From a virus (Duplodnaviria > Caudoviricetes): DNA of 64,000 nt. Under the pieces are notes generated by a model. It was not told where the DNA came from. It made no database searches and worked only from the letters and a program-made list of their open reading frames with translations. This document shows, piece by piece, positions 46,830-64,000 of this stretch. The position numbers and the translations under genes were made by a program. The stretch lies in the IMG/VR virus record IMGVR_UViG_3300037808_002146, one strand, 5' to 3'. Every line of letters begins with the position of its first letter. Within the stretch, counting starts at the first letter, position 1.

Positions 46830-48727
46830 TATACTACCTTAAAAACAAAGGATTCGTTAAAATCGGTTATTTCGTCGTTTATAATACTGAAAAATTCTAT
46901 TTTATAAGAAAACCCAGTTAATAACGTCCCAGCTTTAATAGTCGCTGAATATTCGTCATCGTAGAAACTCATTTTCGTCGAAAAAGAAAAATCCCTATCA
47001 ATCAACTCTTTATTAGAAATTAATTCAGATATTCTATAATAGAGATTCCCATAGAAATAATCGGGGTCTTTCCTTAATTTGCTAGGAAGGTATTCTTTTC
47101 CGTTTATTGTAGCAGAGCATATTAGAGTTATATCTTCTTTCTCGGTATATTCTGGTTTTCTATTTTTCATTGCTAAAGAAATAGAAGATATATCAAAGTT
47201 AGAATAAGCATCATTATAAACTCTTGATTTTTTATTTAAAAAAGTAATTTCTCCATCAGAAGTTTGCCACTTTAATTCTACATCAAATCCAGAAGAATCA
47301 GCTTTTAGAGCTTTTTTAACATATGAATTATTTCCCGGGATAGTAAAACTAGCCTGATAAACTCCTGGTAATCTATTTCCGTTAGAAGATTTATCAACTT
47401 GGCTAAAACTAACAGAACTCGTAAAAGAACCAGAAACTATTTTTAAAATGCCGCAATTGTTACCCGTTAGTTGCGCGTTAGAATTATCAAAAAGATTAGA
47501 ATTAGTAAAGCCTTTTTTAACTTTAATGCATGCAGAAGATGCTTTATTAACAAATATCCTCCCGGTATCGTCAGATATAGAATCATCAAATACTATTCTC
47601 AATCTAGGCGTTATCAGTTTATTTTTAACGTGTCTCGAAGCGAATCGCTTTACGAAACGCGATTTGCTATCTGAGCTATACGAACCACTAAAGCCAATCC
47701 TGAAACCTTCACTGGGTATTAGTCCTTTCAAGCTAGCAGATACTGCATTTGTAATATCAAATATTAAATCCTGATTAGGATCATTGAGGTATGTAGAAGA
47801 TCCTAAGTCTACTTTCGTAGTACCGAAGCTAGCGCTTGTTATGATGTCAATATGTTTTGTTGAATGGCCACCTTTAAATTTGATTGTAGTCAATCTAGTT
47901 GCTGCATTTGCTAAAGGCACTGCTGTATTACCCGTTAACCCCGAAATATCCTGTGAAAGATTAACTACAGAACTAGCATCAGGATCTATTGCTGTAATTT
48001 TTAAATCATTATTAGTTTTAGATAATGCAATTGCTTGAAATATTTTTCCAGCAATATGCGATGTCGTCGTGGTTCCGTTTATACCAAAAGTGTAGTTATT
48101 CGAATCAACCTTAGCGGGCGTAGCCGATGCTGGGTTTGCTAGAAAACTTATTGTATTAGTAGTATCGCTCAAAGAGAATCCAACTGTATTATCCCAACCT
48201 CCAACCCCAGTGATTGTGATCGATGCTTGAGCGAAAGTATTATCATTCCCGCCGGCAGCAGCTGCGCCTTCTGACTTCCATGTGATCGGGCTAGATCCTA
48301 AGTAAGATGAAGTTAAATAATTAGCCGATCCTATATCGTCGAAATTACTAACATCAATCCCAAAACCCTCTTCGAAAGTTCTAGTAAGTGGATTGCAAAT
48401 TGCGTCAAAATTAAAAGGCTTTTGTAAACCAGAACTTACATCTTGCAATTCTAAATAAGCTTTGAAGTCGGATTTATTTCGAATATCTAAGATACTAGAA
48501 GTTAAATTTCCAAGCGTCGAATAATCAAATTTAATTAGTAGCGCAGATTTTTCAGATATATTAGATGTTACGTAATTGCCAGATTCAACTACGCCAGATT
48601 CTTCAAAGAGTTTGAAAAGATCTAAAGTAGCGCTGTGGCCTGTATTAGCATTTTTCGATCTATATTTGTTATCAATTATTTTGTCTGTTATATAACAATC
48701 TTTGCTAGCTGAAATTATTAATTGCAT
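46829..48727 (-). CDS. 632-aa structural protein, DNRLRE/CBM96-like N-terminal domain with an inserted module
   Basis: SKDCYI...ALLIKFD...KAYLEL...LIFDIT.AV...GFRI...FASR...PRLRIV pattern; coupled by TAATG overlaps on both sides. Confidence 0.55.
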   Translation of the reverse strand: MQLIISASKDCYITDKIIDNKYRSKNANTGHSATLDLFKLFEESGVVESGNYVTSNISEKSALLIKFDYSTLGNLTSSILDIRNKSDFKAYLELQDVSSGLQKPFNFDAICNPLTRTFEEGFGIDVSNFDDIGSANYLTSSYLGSSPITWKSEGAAAAGGNDNTFAQASITITGVGGWDNTVGFSLSDTTNTISFLANPASATPAKVDSNNYTFGINGTTTTSHIAGKIFQAIALSKTNNDLKITAIDPDASSVVNLSQDISGLTGNTAVPLANAATRLTTIKFKGGHSTKHIDIITSASFGTTKVDLGSSTYLNDPNQDLIFDITNAVSASLKGLIPSEGFRIGFSGSYSSDSKSRFVKRFASRHVKNKLITPRLRIVFDDSISDDTGRIFVNKASSACIKVKKGFTNSNLFDNSNAQLTGNNCGILKIVSGSFTSSVSFSQVDKSSNGNRLPGVYQASFTIPGNNSYVKKALKADSSGFDVELKWQTSDGEITFLNKKSRVYNDAYSNFDISSISLAMKNRKPEYTEKEDITLICSATINGKEYLPSKLRKDPDYFYGNLYYRISELISNKELIDRDFSFSTKMSFYDDEYSATIKAGTLLTGFSYKIEFFSIINDEITDFNESFVFKVV

Positions 48728-50640
48728 TATCTTACGCTCACTTTAATATCAAAATCCGGATATTTCATTTCAAAAATACCATTCTTTTTAGGGAATATAT
48801 AACCTTTTTCAATTATGATATCAAAAGGTTCGCTTAGGGAATAGCCATATGAATTTACTCCGTCGCTATGCACACCTACTTTGGAAACTATAGTAATACC
48901 AGAAGTTCTTCCTCCTGGGCTAGAAGAATCGTGTATCGAAGAAACTCCGTCTGAAGACATTACAGCATAGCTGATATCTCCCATTGCTAAAGGCTGATTT
49001 ATATGAAAATTAGATAGTTTGAGGAGTTTCCTTAAGTTTGTTATTATAGACTGAACTACTATGGATTTTTGAGCTCCTGGTGTTGCGATTACATTTACGT
49101 TTAAACCAAAGTTGTGAATTGCAGCATCCATTATTATATAGGAATCATTGATTAACCTAAAAGATTCTAAATAAGTCTTAAGGTTGAGCTTTAGATTATC
49201 TCCTGATACTTCTAGTGGCGAAGACGAAGATTGCATTGAACCAAATTTGATTAAGTTGCCCGATTGGCCGCGGCTTATTAAAGCTATTTCTACATGGCCA
49301 TTTGAGTCCGGGCTTTCTGAAACTGATGCTCTGTATATTCTCCCAAGGGGAGCTGGCAAAGAATATATTCGAGCTAATAAATCTTCTTTAGTTACAATTC
49401 TAGACTGTGAATTTCTAGCAATTGGGATTTGATCCCTAAATTCTTCTATCGATGGAGGAGGAGCACCACCAGAAGCTTTTTGTAGATTTCTTACGTCTAA
49501 ACTAGCCCTAGTCGAAACAGCTTCTTCATGACTTACGCCAGTGGGAAATGATAAATCTAAAAATTCTATTTGTCTTATAGAACCAACGCTTATGTTGTGA
49601 TTTAAGCCGCCGCCGTGTCTATATTTAATTGACAATGTAGTTTGTCTAGGAGCTACTCCTAAAGTATTCGTTTTTAGCAATGAATTTGGATCTAGAGAAA
49701 ACCTAGAAAAAACTTTTTTTCCATATAGCGGGACGCTTAAATCTCCTGGATCCGGAAGTATGTCATCATCATCAGCTGTAGCATCACCACCGCCAAACTG
49801 GAGCGTGGTAGATAATGTTTGAGGATCAAACAACTTAGTGAATCTATATGGAGCCGGGGTTACAGATATAGATTTTTGGATAGACTGGCGACTCACATCT
49901 TTATTATCTACGATAGTAAAAACATTGTCTTGTGCCAAGTTATCAACTTCATAATAAATATTTCCGTCAGAATCTGACACACTTTCTATTAAACTTACAT
50001 TTTGTTCTGATAACGTTATGTTTCTAAAAGGAGCAAAATTATCAGATATAGAAAATAGCTCTTCCCTAATTTCTCCAGAAACGCATAAACCACGTAAATT
50101 TATTATCTTTTTATTTCCTTGGTTTAAAGGAGCAGGATTTGATTTTTTCCAAATGTAATCTCTTTCTTCACTATTTTCTCTAAGGGAAAAATCAATATCT
50201 TCCATTAGATTAAAAGTCACTCCGTTCCCAGAGATCAACCTAGTTCCTTTTTTTATCTTAGGCAATGATAGCACTGAGACTTTATTTTCTTCGGAGATAG
50301 GTACTTCTATATAGAAAGAAACATAAACAGTCGATGGAGCAGCACCATGAGTTTCGACACCAGCTAAATTAATATGTTTTTTAATGTTTTCTATTTCTAC
50401 TGCGTCTGACCATCTTAGCTCATTAAACTGATGGTCTAGATAAAACGACATAGAGTCGCCGATATAAGAAATCATATCGACGAACATTCCGCCTAGTCCA
50501 GTTTCAGTAAAATCTTCTATATTATCCGGAAAAAAAGTCCTCGCATGTTGAATTAAGTTACTTTTAAAGCCATCAAAATCGCGAGCTAAATAAGACCTTT
50601 TTACAATTTTCTTTTGCCTATTTTTAATATCTTTTGCCAT
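48727..50640 (-). CDS. Baseplate wedge subunit (T4 gp6 / baseplate J-like)
   Basis: YLARDFDGFKSNL...DFTETGLGGMFVDMISYIGDSMSFYLDHQFNE N-terminus; FGGG; YRHGGG..HN; ASGGAPPPSIEEFR...QSRIVTKEDL. Confidence 0.88.
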   Translation of the reverse strand: MAKDIKNRQKKIVKRSYLARDFDGFKSNLIQHARTFFPDNIEDFTETGLGGMFVDMISYIGDSMSFYLDHQFNELRWSDAVEIENIKKHINLAGVETHGAAPSTVYVSFYIEVPISEENKVSVLSLPKIKKGTRLISGNGVTFNLMEDIDFSLRENSEERDYIWKKSNPAPLNQGNKKIINLRGLCVSGEIREELFSISDNFAPFRNITLSEQNVSLIESVSDSDGNIYYEVDNLAQDNVFTIVDNKDVSRQSIQKSISVTPAPYRFTKLFDPQTLSTTLQFGGGDATADDDDILPDPGDLSVPLYGKKVFSRFSLDPNSLLKTNTLGVAPRQTTLSIKYRHGGGLNHNISVGSIRQIEFLDLSFPTGVSHEEAVSTRASLDVRNLQKASGGAPPPSIEEFRDQIPIARNSQSRIVTKEDLLARIYSLPAPLGRIYRASVSESPDSNGHVEIALISRGQSGNLIKFGSMQSSSSPLEVSGDNLKLNLKTYLESFRLINDSYIIMDAAIHNFGLNVNVIATPGAQKSIVVQSIITNLRKLLKLSNFHINQPLAMGDISYAVMSSDGVSSIHDSSSPGGRTSGITIVSKVGVHSDGVNSYGYSLSEPFDIIIEKGYIFPKKNGIFEMKYPDFDIKVSVR

Positions 50641-51140
50641 TAACCTACCGCCCTTATTATTACTTCTATTGATTCATTGGAAACATTCAAACTAGGTATG
50701 GCATATAAGACCCTCACTCCAATATTAGCATGGTGTTCATTGTTATCACGATCTGTAAATGCTTCAAAGCTAGTCAACGAAATAAAAGGCATATAAACGC
50801 TAATAGCTTGATTAATCCTACTTATCGCTTCACTCTCTATATCATCGGATGCTAACTCAAATGCTAACTCTTCTAAATTTGCGCCGAAGTTATAGTTACC
50901 TAACCGCTCTCCCTTATTAGTCATAAGTAGATTTTTAAAGTTATCTTTAATTTGATCTTTTAAGTTTTTGTGCATCTTAAATAAACCGTCTCTATCCGAG
51001 CCAAGCTCTAATGGAGTTTTAATACCAATTAATTTTTGAAATTGGAAATCTCTCTTAGCTTTATCTACAACTGACTTTAATTGGCCGGCTGATTTGAATT
51101 TTATTTCACTTCTATTTTTTGTTCTATCTCTAGATGCCAT
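50640..51140 (-). CDS. Baseplate gp25/GPW-like protein
   Basis: DQIKDNFKNLLMTNKGERLGNYNFGANLEELAFE...INQAISVYMPFISL; adjacent to the gp6-like gene. Confidence 0.92.
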   Translation of the reverse strand: MASRDRTKNRSEIKFKSAGQLKSVVDKAKRDFQFQKLIGIKTPLELGSDRDGLFKMHKNLKDQIKDNFKNLLMTNKGERLGNYNFGANLEELAFELASDDIESEAISRINQAISVYMPFISLTSFEAFTDRDNNEHHANIGVRVLYAIPSLNVSNESIEVIIRAVG

Positions 51141-55250: not shown

Positions 55251-55979
55251 TTAAAATATATCAACGATTCTTTTGTCATGTACTATATCACGATAATGTT
55301 TTCTTATAGATGACATCGAGACAGATAATTTCTTTGGAGTTAGCCCAGATATCTCTCTCACGTAAACATAAATAGCTCTCTTATTTAAAAAATCTAATTG
55401 TTCAATTTTATCAAAGACTGTGATAATAGCGCTAATACAAAGTTTTTCATTCTCCTTAGTAACTCTACTTTTTATTATTTCTAAAACTTTTATTATTTCG
55501 TTTTTTCTATTTGCATTAATGATAATTTTATCTGGAGATTCTATTATTTGAGAATATGCTATAGAGTTTCTGTCTTTTTTAGACAAAGAAGACATATCTG
55601 ATAAGCTTACATTTCTTATAACATTTTTTCGGTGTTGTCTAGAATTAATTATTAGCCAGTTTTTAGCCACAACATTGAAATAAGAAAACGCTTTTGTTCC
55701 GCGATCTTCATCCCACTTATGTATTGTTTCATAAAGGAATGATACGCAGTCAGTTTTTATATTTTCTATTTGGTTAGATCCAGCTCTAAAACCATATACG
55801 AAGATAAGACTTGCAGCTAATTTCTCAAATGCAGGGTGGATTTGCTCATTGTATAATTTTTCCCGTTCTTTGGTTGCCTCTAACTGTTGAAACTCGACTA
55901 TAGAAGCCTGAGTATCTTTATTAAAGTACATATTCCTTTTTTGATTAGGATTTCTTCTAATTTTCTTCTTTTTCTTCAA
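55251..55979 (-). CDS. Phage sigma-factor-like protein (sigma70 region-2 / gp55-like); likely TTG start at 55979
   Basis: YFNKD.Q..I...DCVSFLYETIHKWDEDRGTKAFSYFNVVAKNWLI resembles sigma region 2.2-2.4 (FD..RG.KF.TY). GGAG lies 9 nt before the in-frame TTG. Confidence 0.65.
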   Translation of the reverse strand: MKKKKKIRRNPNQKRNMYFNKDTQASIVEFQQLEATKEREKLYNEQIHPAFEKLAASLIFVYGFRAGSNQIENIKTDCVSFLYETIHKWDEDRGTKAFSYFNVVAKNWLIINSRQHRKNVIRNVSLSDMSSLSKKDRNSIAYSQIIESPDKIIINANRKNEIIKVLEIIKSRVTKENEKLCISAIITVFDKIEQLDFLNKRAIYVYVREISGLTPKKLSVSMSSIRKHYRDIVHDKRIVDIF

Positions 55980-56280
55980 AATAAGTTTCTCCAAAATTCT
56001 TAGAAGAAACATTCTTAGATAAAGCCTCAGCAACTGATAATATAGATTCTTTACATTCCTCTATATCTGAATGGACTTGTCTTACTTCATTGCTATCGTA
56101 AAATAAAGGTATTTCTAAAATTGAAGATATAGAATCTTGCCTTTGTTCTAAAATATCAATGCTTTCCTCTAAAGCGTCTTCTACTTTTAATAATAATAAC
56201 GCAAACTTTACCATAAAAAAACTAGAAAAGCATAATAGAAGTGCTAGAACGCTTATGATAACGATAGCGGCAATACTCAT
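55957..56280 (-). CDS. 107-aa protein with an N-terminal transmembrane helix and acidic coiled tail
   Basis: MSIAAIVIISVLALLLCFSSFFMVKFALLLL; ATGA overlap with the upstream glycosyltransferase. Confidence 0.8.
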   Translation of the reverse strand: MSIAAIVIISVLALLLCFSSFFMVKFALLLLKVEDALEESIDILEQRQDSISSILEIPLFYDSNEVRQVHSDIEECKESILSVAEALSKNVSSKNFGETYFEEKEEN

Positions 56281-57437
56281 GTTAATATATCACCCAAAAC
56301 ACTATCGTAAATTTTGTAAACTTCATGATTATTTAACTTTTCGCGGAGGGTGCTTTTGCCATTATTAGCCCACTCTCTTGGGATAGAACAAGATTTTCTT
56401 ATTTTGCTTAATTTCCTTTTAACATCTGACTCTTTCGGGTGAGCCCAGCGACTAGATTCAATAAAAATATTGTTATCTATGCGAGATTCGTGAACGTTGA
56501 CTAAATCATAATCAAAGGGTGAAAATTTAATATTGCTTAAAAAATCCATATGGCCAGACCATTTTGTTGCCATCACCGGTAAGCCTGAAGCTGCGGCTTC
56601 TAAAAGAGGTAATCCATAACCTTCTCCTCGAGTAAAAGAAACTAGAGCATTGAGTTGTTCGCTTCTGTAGAATGCCGATATTTCATCATTAGTCATAAGC
56701 CCATGCGAAAGGTAAAATTTGGGATAAGAGCCATGGCGGACTTCGTCAACAACTTTAGTTAAAAGCCTTAGCGTATTCTCTCTATCGATTGCAGTCATTC
56801 TGCCTAAGCTGGTTTTTATAACGACACCAACGTCTGGATCATCCTTGAATGTTTCACAAAGCCATTTTATTCCATAGAATGTATTCTTTCTGTCAGCTTC
56901 TGCATTTTGACCTGTAATTAAGCCAAACATCAAAAAATTAAAATTAGTAGAAACGTCTAATTCCATAGGATCAAGCTTTTGTTCTATTAACTCCGGTAAA
57001 ATATACTCTGGAACAACACAGATCTGTGTAGTTATGTCTCCTGACCTTTCAAATGTAGATTTAGTAAATTTTGATGGAACAATGACTAAGTCCATAGAAT
57101 TTACACAATCAACCCAGCTTTGAGAGCATTTATCAGTTTCCACGCCAGCCGTTATACCTACGTTATATTTTGCTACGTTAGGATCCCATTCATTAGGTAA
57201 CTGGACTTGGAAAGATATATCGAAAGACTTTTCAGTTGGATGACTTGAATCAATTATTTTAGAAATAAGGCCATTGTCATATTCACCATTTAAATAGAAG
57301 GTACAAATTCCCCAAGGAGTTACTTGAGCATTTAAAGTTAGATTTTCTCTCTGTAATAGATAGCTAAAAACTTGCCTTGCATGAACTCCATATCCAGCTG
57401 AATTGAGCAAAGGGCCACGAACTAATATGTTTTTCAT
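56277..57437 (-). CDS. Glycosyltransferase, GT-B fold (GT4-like)
   Basis: GEGYGLPLLEAAASGLPVMAT (E-x7-E); DRKNT; N-terminal GYG.HARQ. Confidence 0.9.
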   Translation of the reverse strand: MKNILVRGPLLNSAGYGVHARQVFSYLLQRENLTLNAQVTPWGICTFYLNGEYDNGLISKIIDSSHPTEKSFDISFQVQLPNEWDPNVAKYNVGITAGVETDKCSQSWVDCVNSMDLVIVPSKFTKSTFERSGDITTQICVVPEYILPELIEQKLDPMELDVSTNFNFLMFGLITGQNAEADRKNTFYGIKWLCETFKDDPDVGVVIKTSLGRMTAIDRENTLRLLTKVVDEVRHGSYPKFYLSHGLMTNDEISAFYRSEQLNALVSFTRGEGYGLPLLEAAASGLPVMATKWSGHMDFLSNIKFSPFDYDLVNVHESRIDNNIFIESSRWAHPKESDVKRKLSKIRKSCSIPREWANNGKSTLREKLNNHEVYKIYDSVLGDILT

Positions 57438-58708
57438 ATTTCTATTAACTCAAATCGAGTCGTAGTCGATTTGCCTTCCTTCCAGTTTTCAACTGTTTTA
57501 GCCAGTGTTGAATCCCAATCATCAATAGTCTTTTGATGATTAAACTCAGATTTAGCGTAGTCTTCGCATTTTTTACTTAGCTTCGCTTTTTCTGCCGATG
57601 GCATTGTATACATTTTTAATATAGCGTCAGAAACAGTATCAGTAGAAACATAATCCTCATATATATAAGGAACGTTTTGTGAACCTACTAGAGAACTTAA
57701 TTCAACTTCTAATGCAATGCCATTTTGTGACTCGTCTCTATGATCCACGACTTGTCTGGTTAATCCGCCTGTCTTAATAGCTATTATAGGTGTTCCAACT
57801 TGCAATGATTCTAAGGTTCCTAAACCGAAACCTTCAGCATAAGAAATATTTATAGAGCAATCAGCTACGTTATGCAAAATATTCATCTCTTGAAAACCTA
57901 CTCTCTCAGTAGAAAAAATAACATTTTCAACAATTCCAAACATCTTAGCAACTTCCGTTAAGTCCGGGCCTTCTTGATCATAGGGATCAGTGTGCATTAT
58001 TAAAGTTGCTGGTTTTCTTTCAGCAACATTATCAATTTTATTTAAAAATTTTGACCAAGATTCTAAGATGTCTGCTGGTCTTTTTCTTTTAGCGTTTCTA
58101 TTTACCCAAAATAAAACAAAATCATTAGCCTTGTTTTCTCCTAGAAGCTTAACTTTGTGCTGCTTCGTTGCCATAGGATCTAATCTATAAAAAACTTCAC
58201 TAGGTAAAGAGTGAGGGATAAAGTTAGTTCTCTCTGGCCAGCGCTCTTTTACTTGAGTATATGTGTGGTGGCTATGACAATTAATCAAATCGGTAGACTT
58301 ATAGAACATATCATTAAAATCTGGATACGGTTTATTATCCCAAACATGCCAATATGCAATTGGACAAATTTGATGAATTTCATCCTCTATTTGCCAAAGC
58401 CAAACAAAAAATCTAGGATCAGTAAAAAGCAAAATAATATCTGGTTTTTCACTAGCTAATAAAGACCTAATCATTTCTGGAGTTCCAAAACCATCAACAG
58501 GTTTTATTAAGAAATCTTCAGCAACTTTTGTTAACGAATAATCGTCGTGTTTAATAGCTGCGCCTAATTGTCTTACCGTCCAGCGACCTTTGTCAACCAA
58601 ACCATTAGCTAAGAATCTAGATTGCACTCCAACTCCGGAAGGACTTAAAGCGTGATCAGAAAGCATTAATATTTTATATTTTTCCATTATACCAAAACCT
58701 AAAATCAA
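57434..58708 (-). CDS. Glycosyltransferase, GT-B fold (GT4-like); true start may be the ATG at 58687
   Basis: VNRNAKRKRP; EGFGLGTLESLQVGTPII; KILMLSDH...SGVG. Confidence 0.9.
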   Translation of the reverse strand: MILGFGIMEKYKILMLSDHALSPSGVGVQSRFLANGLVDKGRWTVRQLGAAIKHDDYSLTKVAEDFLIKPVDGFGTPEMIRSLLASEKPDIILLFTDPRFFVWLWQIEDEIHQICPIAYWHVWDNKPYPDFNDMFYKSTDLINCHSHHTYTQVKERWPERTNFIPHSLPSEVFYRLDPMATKQHKVKLLGENKANDFVLFWVNRNAKRKRPADILESWSKFLNKIDNVAERKPATLIMHTDPYDQEGPDLTEVAKMFGIVENVIFSTERVGFQEMNILHNVADCSINISYAEGFGLGTLESLQVGTPIIAIKTGGLTRQVVDHRDESQNGIALEVELSSLVGSQNVPYIYEDYVSTDTVSDAILKMYTMPSAEKAKLSKKCEDYAKSEFNHQKTIDDWDSTLAKTVENWKEGKSTTTRFELIEI

Positions 58709-59583
58709 CTACCAGTGCAGTGTTCAGTACCTTTATAGTCACAAAATAAACAAGAGTTCCTATTTTTTAAAAATAAGCCTCTCTTCATAGATAAAACCAT
58801 GCTTCTTAAAATAGAAGTACATTTATCTTCAGCTTTGGGGCCGACTGAAACTTTTATTAATTCGCAAGTTTTCCCTCGAGGCGCGCCTCTCTTTAAAAGC
58901 ACAAAACCACATCTTACAGATTTTATATCGATATTGTTTTTTGTTCTCCAAAAATGCTTATAAAGAGCAATTTGTGCCCAAGTTAAAACGTCCCTTCTTT
59001 TGCTAGCGTACCAGCCTTTATCACCAGCAGTTTTCCAATCGATGACCCAATATACTTCATTACCTTTTTTGTCTTTTGTTTTTATAAGGGCGTCAATAAA
59101 CCCTTTAAAATATGCTCCAACTGCGGGCACTGGTTCATACAGTTGTTCCTCAGCAGAAATTACTTCATAATCACCAAATTCGTTTTTTAAAAAATCTGGT
59201 ATTTCTTCCAAGCTGAGTTTGGCGTAGTCTAACCAAGTGTCTATATAAACATGTGACTTTGGTTTCCAGCCATTTGATGCCCTATGAGCTGCTTGCTTAT
59301 CAATAAAGTCTTTTGAGTCAAATCCATGAGTTTTCCACTCTTGCCTAATTTCTTGTAACGCAGAATCGACGTCCATTTTTCCTGTTAGTAAAAAATTCTC
59401 TATCCCATTATGTACAGCGGTACCATATGAAAGGTAGGGAGACATTTCAAACATATTGATCTTATCAATGTATGCTAGCTTATGGCGCCACGGACACTCT
59501 TTCCAGTTTCTAATCTCAGAGTATGATACGTGAGGTTTATGATTGGGTAATATTGGTAATTCGTTATTTTGTTCTATAGACAT
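58705..59583 (-). CDS. PD-(D/E)XK nuclease, Cas4/AddB-like with a four-Cys Fe-S staple
   Basis: SYSEI..W.ECP; GTAVH; KGFIDALI; VIDWKTA; Q.ALY; C-terminal CLFCDYKGTEHC. Confidence 0.85.
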   Translation of the reverse strand: MSIEQNNELPILPNHKPHVSYSEIRNWKECPWRHKLAYIDKINMFEMSPYLSYGTAVHNGIENFLLTGKMDVDSALQEIRQEWKTHGFDSKDFIDKQAAHRASNGWKPKSHVYIDTWLDYAKLSLEEIPDFLKNEFGDYEVISAEEQLYEPVPAVGAYFKGFIDALIKTKDKKGNEVYWVIDWKTAGDKGWYASKRRDVLTWAQIALYKHFWRTKNNIDIKSVRCGFVLLKRGAPRGKTCELIKVSVGPKAEDKCTSILRSMVLSMKRGLFLKNRNSCLFCDYKGTEHCTGS

Positions 59584-59598: not shown

Positions 59599-60570
59599 CT
59601 ATATTTTGCTTTTTACATAACTTAAGTCTGATTCGTACATAATTTTAGCTAGAGATTTAAAATCAGTTTTAGCTTGCCAATTTAATATTTTTTTTGCTTT
59701 AGAAGCGTCTCCCAATAAGTGCGGGACTTCGTGGGGTCGAAATAATCTTTCATCAGTTTCCACAAAATCGCCTATAGAAAGATCAGCAATATCGAATACT
59801 TCTTCTAACCAGTTTTTTACTGTATGAGATTTACCAGTAGCTATAACATAATCGTCAGGCGTTGGATGCTGCATCATTAAGTGCATTGCTCTTACATAAT
59901 CTTTTGCATATCCCCAGTCTCTCATAGCATCTAAGTTTCCTAAGCATAGTTTGTCCTGCAACCCTAACTTGATCCTAGCTGCGGCTAGAGTAATTTTTCT
60001 AGTTACAAAAGTCTCACCGCGTCGAGGAGATTCATGATTGAATAATATTCCGCTACATGCGAATATATTATAAGACTCTCTATAATTTCTAGTAAGATGA
60101 TGGGAATAAACTTTAGCACATGCGTATGGGCTAGCTGGTTGTAACTTAGTATTCTCGTTTTGGGGTACCTCGGGATTATCACCAAACATCTCTGAAGAAC
60201 TTGCTTGATAGAATTTGATATTTCTATTTGTATTTCTAATAGCTTCAAGCACGTTCGTTACGCCAGTGACTATAGTATTAGTAGTAGATAATGGGGTGTC
60301 AAAACTAACGCGAACATGAGATTGAGCTGCTAAATTATAGATTTCATCTGGATTATATTTATTGATAATTCGGTAAATTACGCCTGGATCATCTAATTCG
60401 AAGTATTCTAAATTAAAGTTTTTATGTGCGAATATGTGATCAATTCTATCAGTGCAAATTACGCTAGTTCTTCTCTTTAGACCAACAACCCTATATCCTA
60501 TATTAATAAGATGCTCAGCTAAATAAGAGCCATCTTGTCCGGTTACGCCGGTTATAATCGCAGTCTTCAA
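59599..60570 (-). CDS. gmd: GDP-mannose 4,6-dehydratase (TTG start)
   Basis: ITGVTGQDGSYLAE; NLAAQSHV; YQASSSEMFG; SPYACAK; FNHESPRRGETFVTRKIT; LGNLDAMRDWG. Confidence 0.97.
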   Translation of the reverse strand: MKTAIITGVTGQDGSYLAEHLINIGYRVVGLKRRTSVICTDRIDHIFAHKNFNLEYFELDDPGVIYRIINKYNPDEIYNLAAQSHVRVSFDTPLSTTNTIVTGVTNVLEAIRNTNRNIKFYQASSSEMFGDNPEVPQNENTKLQPASPYACAKVYSHHLTRNYRESYNIFACSGILFNHESPRRGETFVTRKITLAAARIKLGLQDKLCLGNLDAMRDWGYAKDYVRAMHLMMQHPTPDDYVIATGKSHTVKNWLEEVFDIADLSIGDFVETDERLFRPHEVPHLLGDASKAKKILNWQAKTDFKSLAKIMYESDLSYVKSKI

Positions 60571-61511
60571 TCAATTCCCCTAATTTTTGGATAGTTTTCT
60601 AAAAACCATTTTGTAGTCTTTTTTAAGCCCAGCCTAAGGTTTGTATAATTGGTATCATATTTTAAACTGTCCATTTTTTCAGAAGATGAGGGTTTTCTAT
60701 CTTGACCATTCATTTTTTTTGATTCCCATTTTATCCTCAAATTTAGCTCTAAAATAGAGAGTATGTCGTTAGCAACTTCGCTTATCGAATATTCCCTGCT
60801 GCTATTGCCGATGTTGATTACACCTTCAATATTTTTTTTCTTTAACAAAAAAGCAATAATGTCAGGGATATCGTTAGCAAAAGTAAATTCTCGTTTAGGA
60901 GTACCATCTCCCCACAAACTTAAGACACGTTTATTTTTATTAGAAGCTTCATAAGCTTTTAAAATTATACCAGGTATCACGTGTGAATTGTTGGGATCAA
61001 AGTTGTCGTTTATTCCATATAAATTATTTGGAGATACACAAAAGTAATTAAAACCTTTTTGTTTGCTAATCGCTTGTGAATGAATATCCAACATTCTTTT
61101 AGCGTAAGCATAAAACATATTAGATTTGTGAGGAGAACCGTTATGAATATTCGATTCTTGCAACGGGTAAGTAGAATTATCTGGGTAGATGCATGTAGAC
61201 AAAAAAGATATGCATTTTTTTATTTTTGCATTTTTAGCAGCATCTAATACATTGGTATTTATCTGGATATTTTCGCTATAAAATTCATGAGGATAAGTCA
61301 TATTAGCCTTTATACCGCCAACTTTAGCAGCAGTATGGACGACAGCATCTACTTTTTGAGAATTAAAAAATTCGAAAGTTTTTCTTCTGTCTAAAAAGTT
61401 AACGCCACCTTGCGATGGACTGGGTACTACCTCCCAATCGAAACCTTTTATTTTGGAGCTAGAAAAAGCTGTGCCAACCAACCCTGAACCTCCTGTAACT
61501 AATACTTTCAT
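60567..61511 (-). CDS. fcl: GDP-L-fucose synthase (epimerase/reductase)
   Basis: VTGGSGLVG; AAKVGGIKAN; STCIYP; YAYAKR; PNNLYG.NDNF; SHVIPG; WGDGTPKREF. Confidence 0.93.
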   Translation of the reverse strand: MKVLVTGGSGLVGTAFSSSKIKGFDWEVVPSPSQGGVNFLDRRKTFEFFNSQKVDAVVHTAAKVGGIKANMTYPHEFYSENIQINTNVLDAAKNAKIKKCISFLSTCIYPDNSTYPLQESNIHNGSPHKSNMFYAYAKRMLDIHSQAISKQKGFNYFCVSPNNLYGINDNFDPNNSHVIPGIILKAYEASNKNKRVLSLWGDGTPKREFTFANDIPDIIAFLLKKKNIEGVINIGNSSREYSISEVANDILSILELNLRIKWESKKMNGQDRKPSSSEKMDSLKYDTNYTNLRLGLKKTTKWFLENYPKIRGID

Positions 61512-62158
61512 TTTGTTCTTCTTTCGTATAGCATTTCCGCGATTTCGAAGTCTATTTCTTCGTCAATATCTATCGCTTGAATATTATCGATAATATAGGG
61601 GTAGAAATTATTGCCTATAATGCTCTTTTTATTGATTAAAATATCTTTAGGGATGACACTTACTGCGAAATTTAAACCCAAATATTCTGGTAAGTCTTGA
61701 GATCTAGGGTGGGATGTAGGATCATAATTCAGCGGCCGGCCCATATGCCACAAATATTCCCTAACAGTGTGCGTTGTTGATATGGAATCATATTTGGCTT
61801 CTAAATTATTCCAAAGACTGCATATGTCTTTATAAGTCTTATCCGTGACTAATGGATTAGTTACATTGACATACATTATTATATCTGAATCTATGTTTTC
61901 AGCCATGTTTTTCCAAACTTCGTTCATAGGTATGCTACTGGAAGCATAGTAAGCATCCCTCTTAATAGGGGTTGCTCCTAATCTTTTAGCGACGCTCAGC
62001 ATATAGTCACAATCTGAATTAACGCAAATTTCCTCAATAGCATCAATCCTCTTTAACTGATTAATTTTTATCTCTAAGAGTGAAGAATTTGCAAAAGGTC
62101 GAATATTCTTATTCGTCACTCTTTGTGATCCCTGTCTTACTGGTATTAAGGCTTTCAT
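61508..62158 (-). CDS. neuA: CMP-nonulosonate (acylneuraminate) cytidylyltransferase
   Basis: ALIPVRQGSQRVTNKNIRPFANSSLLEIKI; TNPL; IDIDEEIDFEIAE. Confidence 0.85.
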   Translation of the reverse strand: MKALIPVRQGSQRVTNKNIRPFANSSLLEIKINQLKRIDAIEEICVNSDCDYMLSVAKRLGATPIKRDAYYASSSIPMNEVWKNMAENIDSDIIMYVNVTNPLVTDKTYKDICSLWNNLEAKYDSISTTHTVREYLWHMGRPLNYDPTSHPRSQDLPEYLGLNFAVSVIPKDILINKKSIIGNNFYPYIIDNIQAIDIDEEIDFEIAEMLYERRTK

Positions 62159-62949
62159 GATTGATTTAAAGACTCCTTAAAACTTTCATATTTTTTATCG
62201 CTTAAAAATTCTTTAAGCTTCTCGTCAACACAAATTCTATCGTCTTTTCTAAAAATGTTATACTTGAAATATTTGAATTGTAAATCTGGATTGTGTCGAT
62301 CTAGCTTTCCTTCTGCAGTTTTTCCGTCATGTGTTTTTTCCCAATCTTCGATTGTTTCCTTAGAATAAAGCGAATTTAAATAGTTTTCCTTGTATAAGGA
62401 GCGATAAAAATCTATTCCCGTTATGTAGAGCTCTCGAAGAGGCAGACTAACTAAATCTATGATAGCAGAAAACCCCCCGTTGGGACGTAAAGTCTCTTTC
62501 CTTATTGACATATAGGGTTCATCCGGTAATATCCTGACGTTTGCGTCTTGAGATATCTTTGCTAGGGGGTTAATAAATCTAGAAAAAAACCACTCCGCTT
62601 TTGGATAAGTAGAAACAACATACTTGACTTCATTTTTTAAAATATCTTCTCTTAGCTGAATCGAATTTTGACTCATGGATATTAGCCTTTTGTCGCCATC
62701 ATCGATTATAATATCACCAGGTAAAACATCGTTAGTTTCATCATTGTCTGTATATAATACATCAACCCTCGAACCATAAAATTTCCTCATCTCTGGATGA
62801 ACGTAGAAAGATTTAACTCGGCAAACTATATCATAGCTATCTATTAAATTTCCCTGTTCTATATCTTGGATAGATTTCGCTGGACCTACTAGAGCTACCT
62901 TTTTATCTCTTACGAATTCTACAAAATCTTCATTCCTAACCAGTGGCAT
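62155..62949 (-). CDS. GT29-like sialyltransferase
   Basis: L-motif-like VALVGPAKSI...GNLIDSYDIVCRV...YGSRVD; S-motif-like PNGGFSAIIDL...ELYITGIDFY; VS-like HNPDLQ; next to neuA. Confidence 0.7.
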   Translation of the reverse strand: MPLVRNEDFVEFVRDKKVALVGPAKSIQDIEQGNLIDSYDIVCRVKSFYVHPEMRKFYGSRVDVLYTDNDETNDVLPGDIIIDDGDKRLISMSQNSIQLREDILKNEVKYVVSTYPKAEWFFSRFINPLAKISQDANVRILPDEPYMSIRKETLRPNGGFSAIIDLVSLPLRELYITGIDFYRSLYKENYLNSLYSKETIEDWEKTHDGKTAEGKLDRHNPDLQFKYFKYNIFRKDDRICVDEKLKEFLSDKKYESFKESLNQS

Positions 62950-63698
62950 TAGATACTCCTAATTTTTTCTAGAAAAATTTTGTCTTTTTTTAGCTTTTCT
63001 TCTATTAACTTCAAATCGCTATAAGTGTCTAGTGAAATACAATCATCTTCGACTATTTGACCGACTATTTTATAACCGTTTTCTAAAAGTCTTAAGTGTT
63101 CGTGATCTTCTATTTTTTCTAAACTAGTTTTTTCCATGTTATAATAGTCTAAAATAGTCTCTTTTTTAAAAGCCATCAAGTGATAAGCTTTCAACATTGA
63201 TTTAATCTTGTTCTTGGCATTAGAAGGTATATCATTTCTGGAAATGTACATTAGTTCCATTGCTTTATTAAAAACTACTTTAAAATCTGAAGGAGAATTA
63301 AATTTATCAAATTTAATCGCTAATATGCTAGCGGCTGCTTGTTTATTCCGCACTAAAACATTTATACTTTTTTGAATAGAATCTGGGTTTAAGAGTATTT
63401 CATCGCCATTTATTAGTACATAGTAATCATAGTCACCATATGCTTTTACGACTTCGTACATTCTCTCTGTGCCGTTCTTATGCGATTTGCTAGTTAAGAT
63501 AGAGTTTCCGCCAAAAGAATCTATTAAGTTAGAAACTATGATGTCATCAGTGGCTACTACTAAATCGTCTAGCGAATTTGATAATTTTGCTCTCTTGTAT
63601 ACATGCTCTATTAAAGGAATTCCAAAAACTTTTTTCAAAGGCTTTTGTTTTATTCTGCTTGATTCTAACCTAGACGGTATTATTCCCAGTATTTTCAT
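62949..63698 (-). CDS. kdsB: 3-deoxy-manno-octulosonate cytidylyltransferase-like (CMP-Kdo synthetase)
   Basis: IIPSRLESSR..QKPL...GIPLIEHVY.RA; VATDD; GTER; NGDE; LEKIEDHEHLRLLENG; LDT..DL. Confidence 0.88.
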   Translation of the reverse strand: MKILGIIPSRLESSRIKQKPLKKVFGIPLIEHVYKRAKLSNSLDDLVVATDDIIVSNLIDSFGGNSILTSKSHKNGTERMYEVVKAYGDYDYYVLINGDEILLNPDSIQKSINVLVRNKQAAASILAIKFDKFNSPSDFKVVFNKAMELMYISRNDIPSNAKNKIKSMLKAYHLMAFKKETILDYYNMEKTSLEKIEDHEHLRLLENGYKIVGQIVEDDCISLDTYSDLKLIEEKLKKDKIFLEKIRSI

Positions 63699-64000
63699 GG
63701 TAGATAGTTAAAAACAGCATCTTGGACTAAAGGCTCATATTTTGTTTGTGTAAGGGAAATCAAACTAATATTTTTATTTTCACCAAAGTTATAAAATATT
63801 TCTGTATTTTCTTCAAAGGATTCTAGTTCTTTTATAGAAAGGTTCTTTTCTTCATAACCATCATATCCAACAACAAATACATCTTCGGCTTTTACTTCTA
63901 ATGCTATTTGAACTGCTATACCTGTATGAGATTTTCCATAGATTTTAGATATCGATCTCTGTTTTAAGAAGTAAGTTTTATCAAATGCTTTTTCCGGTAC
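63695..64000 (-). CDS. C-terminal 101 aa of a sugar-pathway protein (5' end outside the window); resembles the tail of aldolase-domain proteins found beside kdsB
   Basis: Open frame VPEKAF...GIAVQIALEVKAEDVFVVGYDGY...SLTQTKY...FNYLP; its TGA overlaps the kdsB ATG (ATGA). Confidence 0.55.
   Translation of the reverse strand, partial: VPEKAFDKTYFLKQRSISKIYGKSHTGIAVQIALEVKAEDVFVVGYDGYEEKNLSIKELESFEENTEIFYNFGENKNISLISLTQTKYEPLVQDAVFNYLP

What the first reader, a model, noticed from the sequence alone, without database searches (positions are those of the whole stretch)
61508..62949. Eukaryote-type (GT29) sialyltransferase next to a CMP-nonulosonate synthetase in a phage
The 264-aa protein shows L-, S- and VS-sialylmotif-like segments. 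GT29 enzymes are mainly eukaryotic and use CMP-sialic acid-type donors, while typical bacterial sialyltransferases belong to other families. The overlapping neuA-like gene would supply the donor. Inference: the phage caps a glycan on its virion or its host's surface with a nonulosonic acid.
Basis: partly seen in the sequence, partly recalled or inferred. Interest (0 to 1): 0.75.

Follow-up and report, generated by a model that had tools for sequence, protein, structure and literature searches.

The report
Phage sialyltransferase-like enzyme with CMP-sugar partner
An uncultured marine giant phage carries a real but divergent, bacterial-style sialyltransferase-like enzyme coupled to a CMP-sugar-acid synthetase, inside a large sugar-building gene island that it shares in part with marine Flavobacteriaceae and that may make its acidic sugar by an undescribed aldolase route.

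Summary
Positions 62155-62949 (-) encode a 264-aa protein, and its stop overlaps (ATGA) the start of a 216-aa NeuA-like cytidylyltransferase (61508-62158).

It is not eukaryote-type. It has no membrane anchor and no L-S disulfide cysteines, and motif III is replaced by a Cst-II-like GIDFY...Y. Its relatives are phage and Flavobacteriaceae proteins.

The pairing with a cytidylyltransferase is conserved: 41 of 61 non-redundant viral loci have one nearby, often adjacent.

The donor sugar is unknown. No NeuB or KdsA was found. The island instead carries a SIS-HAD fusion, a pyruvate-aldolase/MptE-like fusion, a KdsB-like enzyme and a second GT29. Seven Flavobacteriaceae loci share an aldolase-cytidylyltransferase-HAD core, two of them with a GT29. 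This suggests an aldolase-based ulosonic-acid pathway.

The acceptor (virion or host surface) is unresolved. The scan also noted this stretch once before (e1-5376955).

The parts
62155..62949 (-). 264-aa soluble GT29/GT42-clan sialyltransferase-like glycosyltransferase. L motif about residues 16-46, S motif about 154-181, GIDFY182..Y190, and putative catalytic His219.
61508..62158 (-). 216-aa NeuA-like CMP-ulosonate synthetase (CTP_transf_3), translationally coupled (ATGA) to the transferase. It is the conserved partner.
   Evidence: Pfam 9.9e-15. PseF model 1.5e-19, below its cut-off. Best PDB hits are Prymnesium CMP-Kdn synthetase at 8e-16 and mouse CMAS at 6.8e-9. Synteny.
62949..63698 (-). 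249-aa KdsB-like CMP-Kdo-type cytidylyltransferase. Its stop overlaps the transferase start (TAATG).
   Evidence: NCBIfam NF003952 200.5 bits, above the 193 cut-off. PDB KdsB 2.7e-30. Junction.
63695..64000 (-). Last 101 residues of a 509-aa fusion whose gene runs on beyond the window end. The N-terminus is an HMGL-like class II pyruvate aldolase. The C-terminus is an MptE/Maf/WaaZ-like sialyltransferase-fold domain.
   Evidence: L002 is identical to the window over 11,846 nt. Pfam HMGL-like 1.1e-20. PDB 3dxi 3e-98. Atlas structure rows match MptE-like at TM 0.65-0.73. Motifs LDCTLRDGG and HGHNN are present.
60567..61511 (-). GDP-L-fucose synthase (Fcl), in the same co-oriented gene string.
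   Evidence: NCBIfam GDPFucSynFcl 3.6e-70.
59599..60570 (-). GDP-mannose 4,6-dehydratase (Gmd).
   Evidence: TIGR01472 438 bits, above the 415 cut-off.
56277..58708 (-). Two GT4-type glycosyltransferases (57434-58708 and 56277-57437) at the downstream end of the glycan island.
   Evidence: Pfam Glycos_transf_1. PHROG glycosyltransferase.

Best explanation
The 264-aa ORF is a soluble, phage/bacterial-type member of the GT29/GT42 sialyltransferase superfamily (GT-A variant 2). Inferred mechanism: it binds a CMP-activated 3-deoxy-2-ulosonic acid through its L and S motifs. His219 acts as the general base, and the acidic sugar is transferred with inversion onto an oligosaccharide. The donor is activated by the translationally coupled NeuA-like cytidylyltransferase. 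The pair sits in a phage island of nine soluble glycosyltransferases, a GDP-fucose pathway, a KdsB-like enzyme, a second GT29, a SIS-HAD fusion and a pyruvate-aldolase/MptE-like fusion. Working model, inferred and not shown: SIS isomerase makes an aldose phosphate; a class II pyruvate aldolase condenses it with pyruvate; the HAD domain removes the phosphate; the cytidylyltransferase makes the CMP-sugar acid; and the GT29-like enzyme caps a fucosylated glycan. The acceptor is either a virion protein or a host lipid-linked surface glycan. The host is probably a marine Flavobacteriia member.

For: Sequence. 24 of 48 homologues hit Pfam GT29. Relatives about 50% identical score 26-30 bits against a cut-off of 23. 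The family profile aligns its L motif to ST3Gal-I RRCAVVGNSGNL..IDSHDFVLRMN, its RPNxG to YPSTG, and the near-invariant His to Cst-II His188. That His is the catalytic base according to PMC4202792.

Donor link. The genes overlap as ATGA. 41 of 61 non-redundant viral loci carry a CTP_transf_3 gene within 6 kb, and 29 of 53 such pairs lie within 100 nt of each other. The same GT29 plus NeuA-like pairing occurs in two Flavobacteriaceae chromosomes.

Pathway model. All 7 Flavobacteriaceae loci with the aldolase/MptE fusion have the order fusion, cytidylyltransferase, HAD phosphatase. A non-homologous HpcH/HpaI pyruvate aldolase sits in the order transferase, NeuA, aldolase, SIS-HAD in 6 of 61 viral clusters. 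Bacterial CTP_transf_3+HMGL fusions exist. The aldolase keeps its metal and pyruvate motifs.
Against: Pfam GT29 does not hit the protein itself. Motif III, the disulfide cysteines and the TM stem of classical GT29 are absent. HMM E-values to GT29 and GT42 are nearly equal, so the family assignment within the clan is soft. No activity, donor or acceptor has been measured. Most viral loci with the transferase, NeuA and SIS-HAD triad have no aldolase within 6 kb, so the aldolase step may be optional or unrelated. The SIS domain resembles GmhA most, and GHMP kinases occur in L006 and L007, so the SIS-HAD fusion could belong to a separate heptose route. The residue mapping of His219 rests on a profile alignment and on proportional positions, not on superposed coordinates.
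Confidence: 0.7

Rival explanations
1. This is a classical sialylation module. The 216-aa enzyme activates a canonical nonulosonic acid (Kdn, Neu5Ac, Leg or Pse) or Kdo made by the host's own NeuB- or KdsA-type synthase, and the 264-aa enzyme transfers it. The aldolase, SIS-HAD and KdsB-like genes serve other sugars.
For: The best solved relatives of the 216-aa enzyme are CMP-Kdn and CMP-Neu5Ac synthetases. Most related viral loci lack any aldolase within 6 kb. Phage auxiliary pathways often borrow host steps (general knowledge).
Against: No NeuB or KdsA was found in the island, in the sampled neighbouring genes, or in five related viral contigs, although those contigs are only 11-70% complete. 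The bacterial loci place GT29 directly in an aldolase, NeuA-like, HAD string.
Confidence: 0.22
2. The protein has the sialyltransferase fold but a different chemistry. It could use a non-CMP donor, as has been reported for a plant GT29 galactosyltransferase. It could also be an MptE-like kinase or a SteA-like protein, with only a fortuitous link to the cytidylyltransferase.
Against: All sequence-level matches up to E 0.02 are CMP-dependent sialyltransferases. The catalytic His is near-invariant. Adjacency to cytidylyltransferases is conserved.
Confidence: 0.06
3. The gene is a decaying or non-functional passenger in a hypervariable phage island.
For: It lies in a mosaic island next to tail-fibre genes, and gene content differs between related phages.
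Against: The frame is intact. The protein matches 57 homologues, with 9 invariant and 37 near-invariant positions among the 48 aligned. The fold is predicted with confidence. The gene is translationally coupled on both sides. The stretch recurs near-identically in marine metagenomes from about 20 studies.
Confidence: 0.02

Closest known systems
Bacterial GT29-like sialyltransferase homologues of marine bacteria (Alteromonas, Idiomarina, Loktanella; Petit et al. 2018, PMC5811610)
   Same: They are soluble and lack the TM domain and the L/S disulfide cysteines. They carry sialylmotif-like segments, come from marine organisms, and have no biochemical characterisation. A Flavobacteriaceae GT29 (Pfam 59.8 bits) is 28-30% identical to the phage protein over its full length.
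   Different: The phage protein falls below Pfam's GT29 threshold and has a GT42-like GIDFY..Y where motif III should be. It is phage-encoded and coupled to its own CMP-sugar synthetase. I did not align it to the published bacterial set.
Vertebrate GT29 sialyltransferases (ST3Gal-I 2wnb, ST6GalNAc-II, ST8Sia-III, ST6Gal-I)
   Different: Identity is only 10-16%. The phage protein has no Golgi TM or stem, no disulfide and no HHYWE-type motif III. The vertebrate enzymes are 270-320-residue catalytic domains with extra acceptor loops.
Campylobacter jejuni Cst-II / Cst-I (GT42)
   Different: The structural score is lower than for GT29. Only 2 of 48 homologues hit Pfam CST-I, against 24 for GT29. 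The phage protein has no C-terminal membrane-association segment.
Kdo pathway (KdsD-KdsA-KdsC-KdsB-WaaA) and eukaryote/Bacteroides Kdn/Neu5Ac-9-P pathway (synthase, HAD phosphatase, CMP-synthetase, sialyltransferase)
   Same: The island follows the same logic of isomerase, C3 condensation, HAD phosphatase, cytidylyltransferase and transferase. It contains SIS, HAD, CTP_transf_3 and transferase components.
   Different: The PEP-dependent synthase is missing. Class II pyruvate aldolases (HMGL-like or HpcH/HpaI) occupy that place. The sugar made is unknown.
Virus-encoded virion glycosylation systems (chlorovirus capsid glycans, mimivirus fibrils, glycosylated mycobacteriophage capsids; recalled from memory)
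   Same: A virus carries its own soluble glycosyltransferases and nucleotide-sugar pathways, placed next to structural genes.
   Different: No evidence here shows that the virion is the acceptor. As far as I could find, none of those systems uses a GT29-like enzyme together with a CMP-ulosonate synthetase.

Membership tests
GT29 (Pfam PF00777 Glyco_transf_29) | Significant match to the family HMM | tested here: not met
   There is no hit for the 264-aa protein at E<=1. Relatives at about 50% identity do pass (26-30 bits against a cut-off of 23, mostly through the L motif), and 24 of 48 homologues match at E<=0.01. Membership is therefore transitive only.
GT29 | GT-A variant 2 sialyltransferase fold | tested here: met
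GT29 | Sialylmotif L (donor binding) | tested here: met
   Residues about 16-46 align to the ST3Gal-I L motif. G22, P23, D40 and R44 are invariant. GNS is replaced by GPA, and RxN by RVK.
GT29 | Sialylmotif S | tested here: met
   RPNGGFSAIIDL...ITGIDF aligns to YPSTGILSVIF of ST3Gal-I. G159, G178 and F181 are invariant.
GT29 | Motif III (H/Y-Y-x-E) and the phosphate-binding His | tested here: not met
   The sequence after the S motif reads Y182-R-S-L-Y-K-E-N-Y190. It contains no His and resembles Cst-II GIDFY..Y.
GT29 | Motif VS with the catalytic His | tested here: inconclusive
   His219 is invariant in the close set and at least 90% conserved in the 76-sequence set. It aligns to Cst-II His188. 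Its distance from the C-terminus fits ST3Gal-I His319 (ranges). No residue-level superposition on a GT29 structure was possible.
GT29 (eukaryote type) | Type II membrane anchor or stem, and a conserved L-S disulfide | tested here: not met
   No hydrophobic segment is present (maximum KD19 value 1.16). The protein has only 2 Cys, neither at the motif positions.
GT42 (Cst-I/Cst-II) | Sequence and fold similarity, and the catalytic His with a Tyr pair after GIDFY | tested here: inconclusive
MptE-like / Maf (PF01973) | HMM match, and best fold match to MptE or Maf | tested here: not met
CTP_transf_3 acylneuraminate-type cytidylyltransferase (216-aa partner) | Family HMM match and similarity to NeuA-type enzymes | tested here: met
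   Pfam gives 55.4 bits against a cut-off of 22.6. PDB CMP-Kdn synthetase matches at 8e-16 and CMAS at 6.8e-9. The PseF equivalog score of 70.6 is far below its 205.7 cut-off, so the specificity is unassigned.
KdsB (249-aa upstream gene) | Score above an NCBIfam KdsB model cut-off | tested here: met
   NF003952 scores 200.5 against a cut-off of 193. The other KdsB models are below their cut-offs. PDB KdsB matches at 2.7e-30.

The most novel reading that the evidence does not exclude
Marine Flavobacteriaceae and their jumbo phages share an undescribed, PEP-independent route to a CMP-activated ulosonic acid. A SIS isomerase supplies an aldose phosphate. A class II pyruvate aldolase (HMGL-like or HpcH/HpaI) replaces the NeuB/KdsA-type synthase. 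A HAD phosphatase and a NeuA- or KdsB-like cytidylyltransferase finish the donor. GT29-like and MptE-like enzymes then transfer it. Because the SIS domain is most GmhA-like, the sugar could even be a backbone longer than C9, made from a heptose phosphate. The phage would use this route to put an acidic cap on a fucosylated, blood-group-like glycan on its own fibres or on the infected cell.
Probability: 0.3. Interest if true: 0.82.

Novelty: new variant of a known kind. Interest (0 to 1): 0.62.

Why it matters
Sialyltransferase-fold enzymes of the GT29 kind are textbook eukaryotic Golgi enzymes, and their bacterial relatives are uncharacterised. This work shows that a divergent branch is common in uncultured marine phages: at least 91 IMG/VR loci and 998 cluster representatives. 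The same branch has no match among 50,697 deposited phage genomes. It is tied to a CMP-sugar synthetase. That gives an experimentally tractable, soluble, small enzyme pair for asking what prokaryote-type GT29 enzymes transfer. If the aldolase route is real, it adds a new way of making ulosonic acids and new tools for glyco-engineering. If the virion is the acceptor, it would be a 'sialylated' phage, which bears on phage-host recognition and on particle stickiness in the sea.

Tried and rejected
1. Pfam, NCBIfam and PHROGs on the 264-aa protein itself gave no usable hit.
2. tblastn or megablast of the region, the transferase, a distant homologue (P0056) and the 216-aa enzyme against INPHARED phages found no match. 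The second GT29 matched only an uncultured 484-kb phage.
3. No whole genome is held for the window, so I could not scan the rest of the phage for NeuB or KdsA. Searches of five related IMG/VR contigs for PF03102 and PF00793 were negative, but those contigs are only 11-70% complete.
4. hhalign of the family against the phage's second GT29 aligned the L motif only (probability 78%), so the two are not recent paralogues.
5. I tried to assign the HAD half of the SIS-HAD fusion to KdsC or GmhB. Only weak generic HAD hits came back. The SIS half is slightly closer to GmhA than to KdsD, but not decisively.
6. My interim idea was that GT29_229, the aldolase and KdsB are an unrelated three-gene insertion (from L008 synteny). 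I dropped it after bacterial loci showed the aldolase, NeuA-like, HAD and GT29 genes in one string.
7. Literature searches found no paper on phage GT29 or on aldolase-linked CMP-ulosonate cassettes. They found only an unstudied annotation of a Cst-II-like gene in phage TayeBlu.
8. No RNA holder was listed among the sequencing runs.
9. Source names for cluster members were all 'hypothetical' or empty.
Full report
**1. What is there**

The finding spans two minus-strand ORFs: 62155-62949 (264 aa) and 61508-62158 (216 aa). They are translationally coupled. The transferase stop overlaps the next start as ATGA. The upstream 249-aa gene (62949-63698) ends in TAATG on the transferase start, with AGGAG 9 nt upstream of that start.

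The window is part of an uncultured marine T4-like jumbo phage.
- All large ORFs lie on one strand.
- gp25- and gp6-like baseplate wedge genes lie at 50640-51140 and 48727-50640.
- The nearest cultured relatives of the gp6-like protein are Flavobacterium and Microcystis myoviruses, at 28% identity.
- Earlier notes of this scan on the same genome agree.
- A metagenome contig (L002, 201.6 kb) is identical to the window over 11,846 nt and supplies 8.9 kb beyond the window end.
- The stretch recurs in seawater and marine metagenomes from about 20 studies.

**2. Is the 264-aa protein a GT29 enzyme?**

Pfam, NCBIfam and PHROGs do not recognise the protein itself. It does have 57 homologues. An alignment of 48 of them shows nine invariant residues: G22, P23, D40, R44, G159, G178, F181, H219 and K229.

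Sequence evidence:
- 24 of the 48 aligned homologues hit Pfam Glyco_transf_29, and 2 hit CST-I.
- Relatives about 50% identical to the phage protein pass the GT29 gathering score (26-30 bits against 23), mostly through the L motif. A 29%-identical relative matches profile positions 56-261 of 272.
- An exhaustive search finds 998 cluster representatives at E<=1e-3.
- The nearest ESM-Atlas clusters are GT29-domain families made almost entirely of Uroviricota.

Structural evidence:
- The AlphaFold model is confident (pLDDT 94.4, pTM 0.93).
- Foldseek returns almost only sialyltransferases.
- Next come GT42 Cst-II and Cst-I (10.7-9.3), MptE-type HPPK (10.4), SteA (10.1) and Maf (8.7). There is then a drop to 5.7.

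Motif evidence from a 76-sequence profile against PDB (ST3Gal-I 4.8e-9, ST6Gal1 1.7e-8, Cst-II 2.2e-8):
- The L motif aligns onto RRCAVVGNSGNL..IDSHDFVLRMN of ST3Gal-I.
- RPNxG aligns onto the S-motif YPSTG.
- In the Cst-II alignment the near-invariant family His (H219 here) falls on His188, by my count from the printed alignment. His188 is the catalytic base of Cst-II, and His319 plays that role in ST3Gal-I (PMC4202792, PMC10225777).

**3. What kind of GT29-like enzyme it is**

The protein is not eukaryote-type.
- It has no hydrophobic segment and only two cysteines, so neither a Golgi anchor nor the L-S disulfide is possible.
- Where GT29 has motif III, it has Y182..Y190 after GIDF. This looks like the GIDFY..Y of Cst-II.

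Petit et al. described soluble, cysteine-less GT29-like sequences in marine bacteria, basal to eukaryotic GT29 (PMC5811610). This phage family belongs with that kind, sitting between classical GT29 and GT42. I therefore file it as a GT29/GT42-clan enzyme nearest to prokaryotic GT29. I do not file it as a Pfam-grade GT29 member.

**4. The partner**

The 216-aa protein is a CTP_transf_3 enzyme. Its best solved relatives are the Prymnesium parvum CMP-Kdn synthetase (8e-16; PMC12934254), mouse CMAS (6.8e-9) and bacterial CMP-Neu5Ac synthetases. KdsB comes much later. The 249-aa upstream gene is KdsB-like.

I took the 80 IMG/VR loci and the 2 genome loci that encode relatives of the transferase. 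I clustered them at 90% identity and labelled neighbours with phmmer.
- 41 of 61 clusters have a CTP_transf_3 gene within 6 kb. In 35 of the 61 it is the NeuA-like type.
- In 29 of 53 loci with both genes the two lie within 100 nt of each other. In 48 of 53 they are on the same strand.

**5. Which sugar?**

Beyond the window the island continues, in this order: GT2 (630 aa), GT2, GT11, GT6, GT4, a 324-aa SIS protein, a Pfam-grade GT29 (229 aa, 43.9 bits), a 509-aa HMGL-like protein, KdsB-like, the transferase, NeuA-like, Fcl, Gmd, a PD-(D/E)XK nuclease and two GT4.

No NeuB- or KdsA-type synthase appears in any of these places:
- the island itself;
- 20 sampled neighbour genes of related loci;
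- five related viral contigs, which are incomplete.

The other island components look like this:
- The 324-aa protein is a fusion. Its SIS domain is most like GmhA, with KdsD close behind. Its C-terminal part is a minimal HAD phosphatase with DFDGV and YIDDK motifs. It accompanies the transferase in 18 of 61 clusters. The closest relatives show compact strings, SIS-HAD, transferase, NeuA or transferase, SIS-HAD, NeuA.
- The 509-aa protein has an N-terminal class II aldolase domain. It matches PDB 3dxi 'putative aldolase' at 3e-98, resembles 4-hydroxy-2-oxovalerate aldolase, and keeps LDCTLRDGG and HGHNN.
- Its C-terminal domain has MptE/Maf/WaaZ-like structure, and bacterial CTP_transf_3+HMGL fusions exist.

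**6. Bacterial counterparts**

In a sample of 301 Flavobacteriaceae genomes, 3 carry a transferase homologue. One of the three is the Altibacter MAG contig L086, which is only 12.4 kb and has the synteny of viral loci L012 and L013, so it may be a mis-binned phage contig. Seven genomes carry a full-length homologue of the aldolase/MptE fusion at 39-45% identity.

All seven loci read aldolase/MptE fusion, then cytidylyltransferase (NeuA-like in five, KdsB-like in two), then a HAD phosphatase of about 205 aa. They sit inside surface-polysaccharide loci that include multi-TM proteins.

In two of the seven, a Pfam-grade GT29 follows (59.8 bits, profile positions 53-270 of 272). It is 28-30% identical to the phage transferase over its whole length, and matches the phage's second GT29 only in the L motif.

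In six viral clusters a non-homologous class II pyruvate aldolase (HpcH/HpaI) sits in the string transferase, NeuA, aldolase, SIS-HAD. Two unrelated pyruvate aldolase families in the same cassette position, together with a phosphatase and a cytidylyltransferase, is the signature of a pathway. That pathway would be aldose phosphate plus pyruvate, giving an ulosonate phosphate, then the free ulosonate, then the CMP-ulosonate, then transfer.

This model is inference. It parallels the Kdo and Neu5Ac-9-P/Kdn-9-P pathways, with the PEP-dependent synthase replaced. Its weak points are:
- most viral loci lack an aldolase nearby;
- the GmhA-like SIS domain, together with GHMP kinases in L006 and L007, could belong to a heptose route instead.

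**7. Acceptor and biology**

All island proteins are predicted to be soluble. No multi-TM protein (no Wzx or Wzy candidate) is encoded on the coding strand of the window. The island lies between the baseplate/fibre genes and a Laminin_G/S74-type fibre gene.

GT11, GT6 and GDP-fucose synthesis co-occur with the transferase in several phages. The product is therefore probably a fucosylated oligosaccharide with an acidic cap.

My split, by inference only, is roughly even between two acceptors:
- virion proteins glycosylated in the cytoplasm;
- host lipid-linked glycans exported by host machinery, as the bacterial homologues' context suggests.

The Flavobacteriaceae homologies, the Flavobacterium-phage-like baseplate and the Altibacter MAG contig L086 suggest a Flavobacteriia host.

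**8. Novelty**

GT29-like genes in marine bacteria are published (PMC5811610). I found no paper on GT29-like enzymes in phages or on the aldolase cassette. Among 50,697 deposited phage genomes the transferase has no match, while IMG/VR holds at least 91 relatives, including some in giant-virus bins.

The finding is a new variant of a known kind. The enzyme class and its logic are known. Three things are new: its spread in phages, its intermediate GT29/GT42 make-up, and the probable non-canonical donor pathway.

Noticed in passing
L002:3587-5106 (beyond the window end) with window 59599-61511: GT11 (alpha-1,2-fucosyltransferase family) and GT6 (ABO/alpha-Gal family) genes lie next to a full Gmd+Fcl GDP-fucose branch. 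Together they form a toolkit for a histo-blood-group-like glycan. The same genes recur with the transferase in other phages (L010, L015).
   Followed up: partly
L002:7726-9255 (last 101 aa = window 63695-64000): A 509-aa fusion of an HMGL-like class II pyruvate aldolase (PDB 3dxi-like, 3e-98) with an MptE/Maf/WaaZ-like domain that has L-like (VLLVGGGKS) and S-like (HTGIAVQIALE..VVGYDGY) motifs. In 7 of 7 Flavobacteriaceae loci it is followed by a cytidylyltransferase and a HAD phosphatase.
   Followed up: partly
L002:6061-7035: A 324-aa fusion of a GmhA-like SIS isomerase with a minimal 120-aa HAD phosphatase. In some phages (L009, L032) the two halves are separate ORFs. It belongs to a virus-only ESM-Atlas family with no annotation.
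   Followed up: partly
L002:7037-7726: A second, Pfam-grade GT29 gene (229 aa, 43.9 bits) lies three genes upstream. It is related to the 264-aa protein only in the L motif. Its only match in deposited phage genomes is an uncultured 484-kb phage (LR756508.1), which has three matching places.
   Followed up: partly
window 58705-59583: A PD-(D/E)XK exonuclease gene sits between the sugar-nucleotide genes and the two GT4 genes. It keeps this place in L006 and L008, which is an odd member of a glycan island.
   Followed up: no
L037:9218-10231, L042:8515-10750, L009:9503-10672: In more distant transferase loci, a 3-dehydroquinate-synthase-like gene and a class III aminotransferase accompany the NeuA-like and SIS genes. 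Sugar C-methyltransferases occur in 10 of 61 clusters. This hints at amino- or methyl-modified ulosonic acids.
   Followed up: no
L014, L020, L022, L025, L026, L028, L030, L044, L072, L079: Relatives of the transferase occur on contigs binned as giant-virus MAGs (GVMAG). One is a domain of a 1515-aa ORF (L025:4135-8682).
   Followed up: no
window 55957-56280: A 107-aa ORF with one strongly hydrophobic N-terminal segment is the only membrane-like protein in the island.
   Followed up: no
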